Position numbers and translations under genes: made by a program. From Octopus sinensis (taxonomy: Eukaryota), in contig NW_021832727.1 in NCBI RefSeq assembly GCF_006345805.1, positions 1 through 35,795 of the forward strand: a stretch of DNA of 35,795 nt. Direction: 5' to 3'. Positions 1-20,865 of the stretch are shown here, in pieces. Under the pieces are notes generated by a model. It was not told the DNA's origin, made no database searches, and was given only the letters and a program-made list of their open reading frames with translations. How positions within the stretch are numbered: position 1 is the first letter of the stretch; every line of letters starts with the position of its first letter.

Positions 1-250
1 AAATTAAAAATTTTAAATGGTGACAATATACCCATCGCACCCTATATACATATATATACACTGGCGAAAATAAATTTAAGACTGATGATAAAAGTTCTAT
101 TTCTTACAAAATATTTTGTTACTAACACCATACAAATTATTCTTATCTTTTACTCCTTATGCAGAATTTATTTCTCTTTCGAATGATGTAGACAATAACT
201 ATTTTTATACAACTTGAAGAATTCTAATGGTAAATTAATATAAACGTTTT

Positions 251-4651: not shown

Positions 4652-4741
4652 TCTTTTATCTTTTATCTCTTTCAGTCGCTTGACCGCGCCCAGACTGGGG
4701 CACCGGCTTGAAGAACTTTTAGTCGAATGAAATGAACCCAG
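4652..4741 (-). mobile_element. Family A SINE 3' tail fragment
   Basis: ttcagtcgcttgaccgcg...ggggcacc...ttttagtcgaatgaaat matches the reverse complement of the tails of the SINEs at 16935-17815. Confidence 0.7.
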
Positions 4742-5765
4742 AACATTTCGGCACTTGATGCTTTTCTTTTTCCGTAAAGGGAAAAATGCCTCACAAGCAA
4801 CCAGAGAAATATGCGCAGTTTACAGTGTTGTTTTTTTATCCGAAAGAACTGTACAGAAGTGGTTCGCAAGGTTCCGAGCTGGAGATTGTAGCTTTATTGA
4901 TAAAGAACAATCATGCAGACCATCCACTATAGATGATGACCAACTCAAGTCATTAATTGAGAATAACCCACATTGCACAACCCGAGAATTGGCAGAAAGC
5001 CTTAACCTATCAAAATCCGTCGTTCGTGAGCACCTGGTAAAGCTTGGGTACACAAATTGCTATGATGTTTGGGTACCACATGAGTTGAGTGAGAAGAACC
5101 TTTTGGATCGCATTTCAGTCTGTAATTCGCTTTATAAACGGAATGAAAACGCACCTTTTTTAAAGCAAATTGTGACAGGTTATGAGAAATGGATTATCTA
5201 CCGAATACAGAGAATACAGAGAAAACGATCTCTAAAAAAGTCTTGCTTTGTGTCTGGTGCGATTGGAAAGGAATTCTGTGCTATGAGTTTCTCCAAAATA
5301 ACCAGACAATTAATTCTGAGAAATACTGCACACAACTGGACGAGTTAAAAGCAGCAATTCAAAAGAAACGTCCAAAATTGGCCAACAGGAATGGTGTTGT
5401 TTTCCAACAAGATAATGCAAGACCACACGTTTCTTTGGGAACCAGACAAAAATTACTGCAGCTCGGCGGGGATGTGTTACCCCACCCTCCATATTCACCA
5501 GTTATTGCTCCTTCAGATTTCCACTTATTCAGGTCTCTGCAGAATAGTCTTAATGGTAAAAATTTCAATTCCTTGATACCTTGATGAATTCTTTGCCATG
5601 AAACCACCTCAGTTCTGGGAAGAGGGTATTTTCAATTTAAAGGAAAGATGGAGACGCATTGTGCAACAAAATGGTTCATATTTTGGTTGATTAAAAATGC
5701 AATGGCAATTATTGACCTTTTTCTTTCCTTAAAAAATCGGCACGAACTTTCCGGACAACCCAATA
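4741..5765 (+). mobile_element. Mariner (D,D34D) transposon, 5'-truncated, frameshifted transposase pseudogene
   Basis: ORFs 4755-5348 and 5189-5584 give an HTH region, WVPHEL, IVTGYEKW (first catalytic D changed to Y) and QDNARPH...YSPVIAPSD with 34 residues between the Ds. The C-terminus ERWRRIVQQNGSYF lies in another frame. 3' TIR-like cacgaactttccggacaacccaa followed by TA. Confidence 0.93.
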
Positions 5766-17551: not shown

Positions 17552-17582
<31 letters not shown>

Positions 17583-17815
17583 TGTGTGTGTGTGTGTGTT
17601 TGTGTGTTTGTGTGTTTGTCACCACTTGACAACCAGTGTTAGTTTGTTTACGTCCCATAATTTAGCGTTTTCGGCAAAAAAAAAAGACCGATAGAACAAG
17701 CACCAAACTTCGAGAAAAAATGAGTAACGGAGTTGATTTGTTCGACTAAACCCTTCAAGATGGGCCCCAGAATGGCTGTAATCTAATACCTGAAACAAGT
17801 AAACAATAAAAGATA
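17360..17815 (+). mobile_element. Full-length family A SINE, more diverged
   Basis: Collinear with 16935-17355. Confidence 0.85.
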
Positions 17816-18109
17816 ACGATAGCAGTGTTGGTGAAACGTCTCGCTGCAAACCTCGACACCTAATTCTGGACAAATTATAACAACTTCAGGTTATCTCCAC
17901 AGATTTTCTATAGATATCATTACCAGCGCTAATTTGTTACGACGTGTCGTATCCGTATGCGCCTAATGCAAACAACAATGAGATCGAAGACGAAAAATGC
18001 GTAATGGGTGTATATAATGGTTACGTAGCGAAATACGGTGTCCCTACAAATCATTAAAATTATAACAAAACCACAATGGGCAAAAAAAAAATTAAATAAA
18101 GTGACGAAT

Positions 18110-18475
18110 TATGTTTCAGTAATTTGGCTGCGGCCATGCTGGGGCACCGCCTTGAAGGGTTTTAGTCGAACAAATCGATCCCACAACTAATTTTATTTTA
18201 AAACATGGTACTTATTCTATCGAGCTCTTTTACAGAACCGTTAATTTACAGGGACGTAAACACACCAACATCGGTTGCCAAGCGGTGAAGGGTACAAAGA
18301 CAGACACAAACACACACATACACGCAACCACACGGGCGCGCGCGCGCACACACAGACATGCAACGGGCTTCTTTCAGTTTCCATTCACAAGGCTTACCCA
18401 AGGTGCCACGCAGTGGGACTGAACCCGGAACCAAGTGGTTGGGAAGCAAACTTATTACCACATAGCCACGCCTAT
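18110..18475 (-). mobile_element. Family A SINE with internal deletion
   Basis: Reverse complement of family A from tail to head (…ccacatagccacgcctat). Confidence 0.85.
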
Positions 18476-18489
18476 ACAAATATATATTC

Positions 18490-18829
18490 TTTTATATTTT
18501 GTTTTTGTTTCAGTCATTTGACTGCGGATATGTTGGAGCAACGCCTTTAGTCGAACAAATCGCTCCTAGGACTTATTGTCTGTAAGCCTAGTACTCATTC
18601 TACCGGTCTCTTTTGCCGAGCCGCTATGCTACGGGGTCGTGAACACACCAACATCGCTTGACAACCGATGCTGGTGTGTTCACGTCCCCGTAACATAGCT
18701 ATAATAGAAGACACGTCCCCGTAAGACAGGCTATAGTAGAAGACACTTGCCCAAGGTGCCACGCAGTGAGACTAAATCCGGAACCATGTGGTTGGTAAGC
18801 AAGTTACTTACCACAGAGCCACTCCTGTG

Positions 18830-18835
<6 letters not shown>
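18490..18835 (-). mobile_element. Family A SINE with rearranged (fold-back) centre
   Basis: Tail and head intact; the centre is replaced by an inverted copy at 18657-18699. Confidence 0.85.
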
Positions 18836-18899
<64 letters not shown>

Positions 18900-19024
18900 T
18901 TTATAGGCTAAAATCTTTATAAGAATTTATCAAGTAGTTAGCGTGAAAAACCCAAAAGGAAAAAATTTATTAATTATTCCCTATAAATATATTTATTTAT
19001 ATTAAGGGCATTACTATACATAAA

Positions 19025-19504
19025 TGCCTCATGCTACCATAATAACCACATTGTACCGAACGCGAGGGAATGCAACTCTCGAAGCGAGCGTCCTAAAAAC
19101 AGGCTCATCTGCATATCATATGATTTCGTAATTAGTGCAAAAATTGTAAATTTAACCGGAATATATTCAGTCCTGAATTTTATTCTGAATAAACACGCGT
19201 ACCGAAATACAATTCGAAAAGCCCGCCTCTTACATAGATATATAAGTGAAAACAATTTCTATGTACTATGCTGGATACATGTGGTGTTCGTCTGGCATGC
19301 TGATTTTTGTTTATTTTTATGTGTCTTGACTATGCTTGCACTGACGAGTAAAAAGTACATTTTGTGCACTAATTACGAAATCATATGATATGCAGCTGCG
19401 CCCGTTTTTAGGAGGCTCGCTTCGAGAGTTGCATTCCCTTGCATTCGGTACAATGTGGTTATTATGGTAGTTTTGACTTTAAAAGTCCCTCCTAGCGTGA
19501 GGCA
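19025..19504. repeat. Long inverted repeat (~115-bp arms) in TA-rich flanks, probable Penelope-like inverted terminal structure
   Basis: 19034-19140 pairs with ~19365-19470. Outer tgcctcatgcta (19025) pairs with tagcgtgaggca (19493-19504), and the left arm lacks ~25 bp. Confidence 0.85.
19334..19396 (+). ncRNA. Type I hammerhead ribozyme motif
   Basis: Stem I ttgca (19336-40), CTGACGA (19341-47), stem II gtaa...ttac with inner gtaca-ttt-tgtgc hairpin, GAAA (19377-80), palindromic stem III tcatatga, then UA and tgcag. Cleavage triplet AUA, cut predicted after 19390. Confidence 0.8.
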
Positions 19505-19553
19505 ATATATATATATATATATAATCAAAATAAGCAACAAGAATGACTCCGGT

Positions 19554-19645
19554 AATTTGGTACGATCGTTTCGCACTACATCATTTTATTAAATGTTGTA
19601 CGTATTACAACAGAGTAAAAAATGCTGAGCACTCATCAGCCAATT
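19554..19645 (-). ncRNA. Type I hammerhead ribozyme motif with long stem II
   Basis: Minus strand reads aattgg-CTGATGA-gtgctcagcatttt...aaaatgatgtagtgc-GAAA-cgatcg-TA-ccaaatt. Triplet GUA, cut predicted between 19561 and 19560. Confidence 0.75.
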
Positions 19646-19962
19646 ATAGAGGTCTTCCATTAATACAAAAATTTTCATTTCAAGTGGCAACTTTATAGAG
19701 AAGGTAGATACATAGACAAAGATGTGGATTTAAATTTTAAGAACATTTGAGGTAGTGGAGCCCATCAACTGACTGACTAAGATTCAGTTGTCCCAGACTA
19801 CTGTAAGGTTCTAAGAGGGAAGAACAAATGAAAAGAGACAATAAAGATTTTCTAATTATAGAAATGGGGTAAGGGTGAGTAAAGGGGATGTCATAGCTCC
19901 ATATTAAGGAATTTATATATATATATTATATATATATATATATATTAATATATATATATATA

Positions 19963-20480
19963 TCAGGTATCCCATAAATTCTGTCTGAATTTTGAATAAA
20001 GATCAAATGTTATATTTATTGAAATTAATCATCAATGTACTTTTCCTGATTATCTATGACTTCCTTCTATTTACAAGCTTTTTAATCCCATCAATGTAAA
20101 ACTCTTTTGGTTTCAAAGCGAAGAACTCTGAAATGTCATTTTCGACCTCCTCCTGGCTTGCGAAAGCTATGTCCCCCAAATGATTCTGTAAACTACGAAA
20201 CAGATGGTAGTCTGAAGGAGAAAGGTCAGGAGAATAAGGTGGATAAGGTATTTTTTCCCAACCAAGCTCTTCGATCTTCTGTGTTGTGACCTTTGCACTG
20301 TGGAGTCGCGCATTGTCCTGATGAAACATCACTCCTTTTTGATTCACTAAAGCATGTATTTTTTTCTTCAAAGCTTGGTTCAAACGCTCTAATTGCTGAC
20401 AGAAGACTTGAGCATTGATTGTTGCATTAGGTGGTAACAATTCAAAGTGAATTACTGCTTTGCAATCCCAAAATTTAGAG
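19963..20480 (-). mobile_element. Mariner (D34D) transposon 3' half
   Basis: ORF 20054-20590 contains WDCKAVIHFELL...HQDNARLH...YSPDLSPSDYHLF with D34D spacing. TIR-like tcaggtatcccataaatt abuts (TA)n. Confidence 0.92.
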
Positions 20481-20865
20481 AGAAGAACCCGGAACCATGT
20501 AGTTTGGAAAAAATCTGCTTCTATGGCGATTTTTCTTCCGAAAGCATTTAGAATGTACACAGGGAAATATGAAAATGAATGACACAACATGGATATATGG
20601 ATATGTGTCCGTTAATTCAAGAAGAAACACATTGTAATGACAGTGCAGTTCATCGTGAATTAGACAGGTGGGCGGAAGTGACATACAATTCAATCTGAGT
20701 TTAAAAGGGAAATGAGAACAGGGAAATGGAGGAGGGGAGGGCTGGCAGTGGATCAGGGTCGTAATGAATGAGTTTAAGGTTTTCATCAAAACTGGTGCTC
20801 AAAATGAAGATAAAAGATATGACCGTGATTTGACATTCATCCAAAAAGGCTGAGTAGACCATTGG

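What the first reader, a model, noticed from the sequence alone, without database searches (positions are those of the whole stretch)
19334..19645. Two unrelated hammerhead ribozymes on opposite strands converging on one (TA)n tract
Seen: one + strand hammerhead (19334-19396) and one - strand hammerhead (19554-19645). They share only the catalytic core, and their 3' tails (~115 nt and ~37 nt after the cut sites) both end in the (TA)n at 19505-19523. Known: minimal type I hammerheads with palindromic stem III mark the termini of Penelope-like elements and retrozymes. Inference: two distinct ribozyme-bearing retroelement families inserted tail-to-tail at a TA microsatellite. A transcript crossing in either direction would then meet a self-cleavage site. 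The ribozyme class is known; these families and this bidirectional arrangement may be undescribed.
Basis: partly seen in the sequence, partly recalled or inferred. Interest (0 to 1): 0.8.

Follow-up and report, generated by a model that had tools for sequence, protein, structure and literature searches.

The report
Two hammerhead retroelements sharing TA target
Both hammerhead ribozyme motifs are real, but they are the end-pieces of two separate, very abundant jumping-gene families that both sit in TA repeats, so their tail-to-tail meeting is most likely a chance by-product of a shared target and not a two-way RNA cutter.

Summary
Both motifs are present as described: 2 hits in the window against 0.04 per shuffled window. 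The minus-strand one (family B) is the 3' end of a 5'-truncated Penelope-like element of the Hydra clade: other copies carry RT plus GIY-YIG, and its core has 701 exact copies. The plus-strand one (family A) lies in a non-coding 480-500-nt repeat unit, a non-LTR retrozyme found as partial tandems, inverted arms and one young multimer. A and B share only the core. Both end in (TA)n at internal TA-like motifs. The exact A-B junction turned up nowhere else. Two more tail-to-tail hammerhead pairs with other partners turned up among 148 places, and chance predicts about one A-B case per genome. Close opposite-strand hammerheads in such elements are already published. Families A and B were not found in the papers searched; cleavage and RNA circles are untested. 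The scan has noted similar hammerhead-Penelope cases in other genomes. Verdict: new members of known kinds in an ordinary arrangement.

The parts
18832..18896 (.). (TA)32 tract at the outer (3') end of the inverted left arm of the family A insertion
18897..19143 (-). Inverted, 5'-truncated arm of family A. It starts inside the hammerhead (holds GAAA, stem III and the cleavage triplet at about 19105-19128, but no CUGANGA) and runs to the usual A 3' end
19141..19504 (+). Direct arm of family A (non-coding retrozyme-type unit, about 500 nt when whole); ends 114 nt after the predicted cut, earlier than in most copies
19337..19394 (+). Type I hammerhead of family A, subfamily A1 (G10.1-C11.1, 10-nt palindromic stem III, AUA triplet, predicted cut 19390/19391)
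19505..19523 (.). (TA)9 tract shared by the 3' ends of A and B
19524..19914 (-). 5'-truncated copy of family B (Hydra-clade Penelope-like element, about 4.2 kb when whole): last 270 nt of the 3' UTR, hammerhead and 37-nt tail
19557..19643 (-). Type I hammerhead of family B (long stem II, 8-nt palindromic stem III, GUA triplet, predicted cut 19561/19560)
19914..19963 (.). (TA)n tract at the 5' truncation point of B
19964..20611 (-). Neighbouring mariner-type transposase fragment (not part of the finding; a further element beside the same TA cluster)
   Evidence: Pfam Transposase_1 E 4.8e-13, DDE_3 E 8.3e-08

Best explanation
The two hammerhead motifs belong to two unrelated multi-copy retroelement families that both end in (TA)n, and they most likely met tail-to-tail through two independent insertions into one TA microsatellite. 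Family B is a Hydra-clade Penelope-like element (RT plus GIY-YIG in longer copies), here cut down to its last 390 nt. Family A is a non-coding retrozyme unit of about 500 nt, likely mobilised by a Hydra-type enzyme, here as a direct arm plus an inverted truncated arm. Inferred mechanism: the hammerheads cut more-than-unit transcripts as dimers through the palindromic stem III. The unit RNA (circular, or still tandem) is reverse-transcribed from a nick in genomic (TA)n that anneals to an internal UUAUA-like motif 37-250 nt past the cut site. Copying then runs back through the intact ribozyme and usually stops early or flips strand. The ribozymes serve the elements' own replication; the pair has no joint function.
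For: B is contiguous with a GIY-YIG and RT reading frame in L121-L123 (Pfam GIY-YIG E 3.8e-4) and has the Hydra motifs DKT, CxCX5C, CxxC, CxH and no CCHH. B copy number falls from 1655 candidates at the 3' end to 283 about 0.7-1 kb upstream. 62 of 65 B end rows run into (TA)n; 34 end at +33..41 and 30 at +124..148 after the cut, where the element itself reads TTATA at +37 and +136 and goes on to the ORF's ATG at +188. In 26 of 30 loci the A unit start follows directly on its own 3' end; cut-to-cut spacing is 496-506 nt, and a 98-99% identical inverted multimer of 477-nt units exists. Only the window covers both sides of the A-B junction among 40 scored of 3371 candidates. Two other heterologous tail-to-tail hammerhead pairs (L165/L180: family C with A''; L072: C with B) and one head-to-tail pair (L078: A' with B) occur among 148 distinct places. 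Uniform targeting predicts 0.25-1.9 tail-to-tail A-B tracts per genome.
Against: No cleavage, transcript or circle was shown for either family. No autonomous element sharing sequence with A was found (30 Hydra loci and family B compared), so A's enzyme partner is inferred. Copy numbers are first-look candidate counts and the chance estimate assumes uniform use of TA tracts. The junction search scored only 40 candidates. Covariation within 67 A/A' copies is weak (13-75 of 500 shuffles reach the observed values), and those rows were picked with a mismatch-tolerant core pattern. B is about 4.2 kb, longer than the under-3-kb Hydra norm, and its RWK motif reads RWI/IWI. No clade tree was built.
Confidence: 0.86

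Rival explanations
1. The pair is a host-co-opted, bidirectional self-cleavage cassette that terminates or processes transcripts crossing in either direction.
For: Both catalytic cores are intact in the window copies, whereas 15 of 67 A-type and 20 of 57 B copies examined have a damaged core.
Against: In plus-strand read-through RNA the predicted pairing probability of all three hammerhead stems is 0.0, because the inverted arm pairs with 38 of 48 nt. Stem III of the minus-strand motif forms with probability under 0.01 as a monomer. The window copies carry private substitutions, one of which breaks a distal stem II pair in A. No host exon was recognised: of 17 window ORFs scanned, 3 hit transposase families and 14 hit nothing. 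Similar junctions occur with other partners.
Confidence: 0.04
2. A and B are two halves of one composite or viroid-like ambisense element with a ribozyme on each strand.
For: The geometry resembles replicons with ribozymes on both strands (PMC10085705, passage).
Against: A and B occur apart in nearly all loci: 48 loci held only A, 72 only B, and the only other locus with both was L078, in head-to-tail order. B continues into an RT/GIY-YIG frame and A into its own next unit. The junction was found once.
Confidence: 0.02
3. Family A is not mobilised through RNA circles. It is a deletion derivative or pLTR remnant of an undetected autonomous element, or a minisatellite spread by DNA-level processes, with a mostly decayed ribozyme.
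For: A copies are 88-93% identical to the window copy, and only 185 places match an intact-core pattern against about 2000 or more candidates per subfamily. In Xenopus 8 of 9 retrozyme dimers tested did not cleave (bioRxiv 10.64898/2026.07.22.740005).
Against: No shared sequence lies upstream of the unit in 30 A loci or 25 A' loci other than the unit's own end. Subfamilies differ at N7, loop II, the centre of stem III and H17 (0 of 67 G) but keep the core. The A'' subfamily (73-74% identical) has a fully replaced but still paired stem I. Insertions show the inverted and partial-tandem pattern of Penelope-like retrotransposition.
Confidence: 0.15

Closest known systems
Hydra clade of Penelope-like elements (Craig et al. 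2021, PMC8557442), including Hydra-1_Obim of Octopus bimaculoides
   Same: Family B: single RT plus C-terminal GIY-YIG frame, DKT, CxCX5C linker, no CCHH, CxxC and CxH, sense hammerhead near the 3' end, (TA)n insertion, 5' truncation, inverted truncated copies, short tail after the hammerhead.
   Different: About 4.2 kb with an Asn-rich insert and a 1.3-kb 3' UTR (norm: under 3 kb); 60-nt stem II; RWK reads RWI/IWI. The hammerhead and N-terminus differ from those listed for Hydra-1_Obim (compared by eye), so B is a different family.
Non-LTR retrozymes of animals (Cervera and de la Pena 2020, PMC7229834; Li, Clavereau and Pollet 2026, bioRxiv 10.64898/2026.07.22.740005)
   Same: Family A: non-coding AT-rich unit with one type I hammerhead per unit, head-to-tail copies up to a multimer, many monomers; U.U at the base of stem II in one subfamily, as in an axolotl hammerhead and many Hydra hammerheads.
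   Different: The unit is 477-506 nt (about 300 typical in the 2020 paper; 51-972 in the preprint). Most copies are dispersed 1-1.5-mers with inverted arms ending in (TA)n. Circles and cleavage are not shown here, and no cephalopod was seen in the parts of those papers read.
Minimal hammerheads of metazoan Penelope-like elements (Cervera and de la Pena 2014, PMC4209133)
   Same: Short stem I, long stem II, palindromic stem III, predicted dimer cleavage; dual motifs 100-700 bp apart on opposite strands are reported there.
   Different: The passage read does not say whether those pairs are convergent or from different families. Here the pair is convergent and heterologous, whereas same-family B pairs are divergent (13 divergent, 1 tandem, 0 convergent pairs within 2 kb among the first 100 of 701 places, counted by eye).

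Membership tests
Type I hammerhead ribozyme (both motifs) | CUGANGA, GAAA and NUH core joined by stems I, II and III | tested here: met
   93% of cells paired in 67 A-type copies against 14-45% for slid controls
Type I hammerhead ribozyme (both motifs) | Match to an Rfam hammerhead model | tested here: not met
   no hammerhead at E<=10 in 18900-19910
Type I hammerhead ribozyme (both motifs) | Compensatory change in stems among relatives | tested here: inconclusive
   weak within A/A'; clear stem I replacement in A'' and stem III centre change in A'; B copies too alike to tell
Type I hammerhead ribozyme (both motifs) | Self-cleavage at H17 | not testable with these tools
   needs in vitro transcription; cofolding predicts dimer folds (-27.8 vs -16.4 and -45.8 vs -38.4 kcal/mol)
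Hydra-clade Penelope-like element (family B) | Single frame with RT and C-terminal GIY-YIG | tested here: met
   (GIY-YIG E 3.8e-4, just under Pfam's cut-off; the RT has no Pfam hit and is read from its motifs and from 524 homologues); the long copies seen are broken into several frames
Hydra-clade Penelope-like element (family B) | DKT motif, CxCX5C linker, no CCHH, CxxC and CxH around the conserved E and N | tested here: met
   translations against the definition
Hydra-clade Penelope-like element (family B) | RWK motif | tested here: inconclusive
   reads IWI in L122 and RWI in P0021
Hydra-clade Penelope-like element (family B) | Insertion into (TA)n and sense hammerhead near the 3' end | tested here: met
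   62 of 65 3' end rows; 8 of 16 non-inverted 5' alignment ends also at TA
Hydra-clade Penelope-like element (family B) | Generally shorter than 3 kb | tested here: not met
   about 4.2 kb, estimated from L121 and L122 coordinates; a tendency in the source paper, not a strict criterion
Hydra-clade Penelope-like element (family B) | Placement in the Hydra clade on an RT tree | not tested
Neptune-clade Penelope-like element (considered first for B) | CCHH motif inside GIY-YIG and CX2-5CxxC linker | tested here: not met
   one cysteine between VIY and YFG; linker is CxCX5C
Non-LTR retrozyme (family A) | Non-coding unit with one type I hammerhead in head-to-tail repeats | tested here: met
Non-LTR retrozyme (family A) | [quoted passage not shown] | tested here: met
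   met by subfamily A'' at L180; not met by the window copy, which has one complete motif
Non-LTR retrozyme (family A) | Circular RNA of unit length in vivo | not testable with these tools
   only assembled contigs were available
Non-LTR retrozyme (family A) | Homology to the pLTR of an autonomous Penelope-like element | tested here: inconclusive
   none to B or to 30 loci of two other Hydra families; 33161 candidates existed and 61 were scored

The most novel reading that the evidence does not exclude
Family A is the first cephalopod non-LTR retrozyme superfamily (thousands of copies, at least four subfamilies, young multimers) parasitising Hydra-clade enzymes. In both A and B the insertion end is set not by the ribozyme cut but by internal priming of a ribozyme-made RNA circle at UUAUA-like motifs by a nicked (TA)n. 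With intact Hydra frames in the same genome, this would make the open question of what Penelope hammerheads do directly testable.
Probability: 0.45. Interest if true: 0.5.

Novelty: new member of a known kind. Interest (0 to 1): 0.27.

Why it matters
The convergent pair itself is ordinary: it shows how TA microsatellites collect several Penelope-like families. The by-products are more useful: a Hydra-clade family and a retrozyme superfamily, neither found in the papers searched, whose copies end 37-250 nt past the ribozyme cut at internal TA-like motifs and read through the intact ribozyme. That pattern fits the proposed circular or more-than-unit template model of Penelope replication. The genome also holds intact Hydra reading frames with which the model could be tested.

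Tried and rejected
Rfam: no hammerhead hit in 18900-19910; the whole-window scan showed 150 of 174 rows, none a hammerhead and nearly all microsatellite-driven miRNA-model matches. Neptune assignment for B: my first reading (notes), rejected after reading the Hydra definition. Autonomous parent for A: nothing upstream of the unit in 30 A and 25 A' loci, and no homology to B, C or D. Composite A-B element: rejected. Expression and polymorphism: no RNA holder listed. Laying 4 of the 24 listed runs gave only short contig pieces that could not be told from paralogues, and the tool skipped 19497-19534, so this says nothing on expression or on an empty site. Host gene context: 14 of 17 window ORFs scanned had no Pfam hit and 3 hit transposase families; small exons would be missed. 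Covariation statistics within A/A' were weak. Target-site duplications could not be read because both flanks are (TA)n. Literature searches found no description of families A or B or of convergent heterologous pairs; Repbase and Dfam could not be searched, and the preprint's supplements were not seen, so the families may be catalogued there.

Full report
Observation. Both motifs are in the sequence at the stated places. A type I hammerhead descriptor found exactly 2 motifs in the 35.8-kb window, both with a perfect palindromic stem III; 300 dinucleotide shuffles gave 0.04 hits per window and no palindromic one. Rfam does not detect either. Outside the core the two elements align no better than shuffles (score 19, shuffle mean 20.3, 227 of 300 as high).

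Host. The window is the whole of contig C9198 of a 2.72-Gb assembly. A protein named as from Octopus sinensis begins with a stretch 89% identical to family B's frame over a third of the query, so the host is inferred to be an octopus.

Family B (minus strand). The 3' part has 1655 first-look candidates (40 scored, 91-96% identical) and 701 exact copies of a 19-nt core stretch. A segment 0.7-1 kb upstream has only 283 candidates, the gradient expected from 5' truncation. Walking upstream led through a 1.3-kb 3' UTR to a GIY-YIG domain and an RT, contiguous in L121-L123 (Pfam GIY-YIG E 3.8e-4; 524 homologues among 3015 candidates). I first called it Neptune. The protein has DKT, a CxCX5C linker, no CCHH, and CxxC and CxH around the conserved E and N, which is the definition of the Hydra clade (PMC8557442 section 11). 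It departs from that norm in length (about 4.2 kb, estimated) and in the RWK motif. That paper's supplement lists an octopus member, Hydra-1_Obim, with (TA)n preference, whose hammerhead and N-terminus differ from B by eye. L122 carries a partial upstream hammerhead copy (its 3' half) whose downstream sequence runs into the ORF's ATG at +188, so the 'tail' after the cut is the 5' leader of the next unit. Of 65 end rows, 34 end at +33..41 and 30 at +124..148 (one is the read-through in L122), and 62 run into (TA)n. The element reads TTATA at +37 and +136. Of 25 5' alignment ends, 9 abut an inverted arm and 8 of the other 16 abut TA (two of those 16 are alignment breaks, not ends), which favours TA as target and not only as tail.

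Family A (plus strand). 1941 candidates, 88-93% identical among the best. In 26 of 30 loci the unit start at 19141 follows directly on the unit's own 3' end, often with an inverted arm; no other shared upstream sequence was seen. Cut-to-cut spacing is 496-506 nt, and one natural unit folds better than all 100 shuffles (z -3.4). Related subfamilies exist. A2 has U.U at 10.1-11.1 and mostly AUC. A' (2505 candidates) has a new loop II and stem III centre. A'' is 73-74% identical, has a fully replaced but paired stem I, and forms a 98-99% identical inverted multimer of 477-nt units at L180. H17 is never G in 67 copies and N7 is the most variable core position. Those rows were picked by a tolerant core pattern, and formal covariation within A/A' is weak (13-75 of 500 shuffles). 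Intact cores: 52 of 67 A-type and 37 of 57 B copies examined; 185 places genome-wide match an intact A-type pattern. This fits a non-LTR retrozyme (PMC7229834, passages; bioRxiv 10.64898/2026.07.22.740005, parts 1-3 of 5). No autonomous parent was found: A has no homology to B or to 30 loci of two further Hydra families (C, 6 loci; D, 24 loci) with open frames of up to about 727 codons (61 of 33161 candidates scored). A Hydra partner is inferred from the shared (TA)n ends, the shared insertion anatomy, and the ctgaNgaT...Tgaa core common to A2 and many published Hydra hammerheads.

Is the arrangement special? A search with the junction found only the window covering both sides among 40 scored of 3371 candidates. 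Of the loci then held, 48 had only A, 72 only B, and one other place (L078) had both, head-to-tail across a TA tract. Two further heterologous tail-to-tail hammerhead pairs appeared without being sought: family C with A'' across (TA)21 (L165/L180) and C with B across a short TA tract (L072), among 148 distinct places. With lower-bound copy numbers and one TA tract per 0.9-1.4 kb, uniform targeting predicts 1-4 shared A-B tracts and 0.25-1.9 tail-to-tail ones per genome; the tract density comes from repeat-rich flanks and the window, so this is rough. Same-family opposite-strand pairs are routine: 13 divergent pairs within 2 kb among the first 100 of 701 B places (counted by eye). Dual minimal hammerheads 100-700 bp apart on opposite strands were reported in 2014 (PMC4209133, parts 1-2 of 4), and a Hydra consensus with sense and antisense hammerheads is in the 2021 supplement.

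Would a crossing transcript be cut? Predicted mostly not. In plus-strand RNA that includes the left arm, 38 of 48 nt of the ribozyme's 3' part pair with that arm and all three stems fall to probability 0.0. The minus-strand stem III forms with probability under 0.01 as a monomer. Two copies cofold into the dimeric hammerhead for both motifs. A single genomic copy would need a partner RNA in trans. No host exon was recognised.

Mechanism. Shown: the two motifs, the two families, their anatomy and ends, and the recurrence of such junctions. Inferred: dimer cleavage of more-than-unit transcripts, unit or circular templates, priming by nicked (TA)n at internal TA-like motifs, copying back through the ribozyme with truncation or inversion, and mobilisation of A by a Hydra enzyme. 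The order of the two insertions is not resolved (best relatives 92% for A and 93% for B over full length). The circular-template model is the 2014 paper's proposal; the end positions found here fit it but do not separate a circle from an uncut tandem transcript.

Novelty and verdict. Searches found no description of families A or B; Repbase, Dfam and the preprint's supplements were not seen. PMC3088659 and PMC10085705 were seen as one and two passages; Lunse 2017 only as a reference title. The finding is real; it consists of new members of two known kinds in an arrangement best explained by shared targeting. Interest 0.27.

Noticed in passing
L180:4093-7312 and L165 (G000:C3, about 152.803-152.806 Mb): Young (98-99% identical) inverted multimer of about 6.7 units of a 477-nt A-type retrozyme with (TA)n at both outer ends, tail-to-tail with a Hydra family C element that has a 703-codon open frame; the best candidate for showing circles.
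   Followed up: partly
L151, L159, L161, L165, L170, L176 3' ends; L072:460-520: Hydra family C hammerhead has CCGAAGA in place of CUGANGA (U4C) in 6 of 6 copies plus L072; U4C is mentioned as a low-activity viroid variant (PMC3088659). Here it looks fixed in a family with intact frames.
   Followed up: partly
L150, L152-L158 and relatives: Hydra family D: 24 loci with 92-99% identical proteins, several with uninterrupted frames of about 727 codons, and a very short hammerhead in 21 of them; looks recently active.
   Followed up: partly
Alignment A1: Subfamily A2 swaps G10.1-C11.1 for U.U together with AUA to AUC at the cut site; A' lengthens stem III with a non-palindromic centre.
   Followed up: partly
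P0021: A public gene model named as an Octopus sinensis ankyrin-repeat protein begins with about 280 residues of family B's ORF; either a mis-annotation or an exonised element.
   Followed up: no
L006 (+ strand, about 1085) and L117 (+ strand, about 1898): Two further hammerhead-like motifs with palindromic stem III that match none of families A-D.
   Followed up: no
window 19504: The A direct arm ends at +114 after the cut, whereas most copies end near +140-157 or +245-250; possibly trimmed when B inserted.
   Followed up: partly
window 18109-18831, 17576-17753 and elsewhere: Several copies of a dispersed repeat of about 350-390 nt ending at a TA tract; I recall it as an octopus SINE, and no call named it.
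   Followed up: no
window 4731-5584 (+) and 19964-20611 (-): Two mariner-type transposase fragments (Pfam HTH_48 and Transposase_1).
   Followed up: partly
L082/L083 (G000:C1, about 121.018 Mb): Family B copy with three head-to-tail repeats of a 274-nt block made of an inverted hammerhead piece joined to the GIY-YIG start.
   Followed up: no
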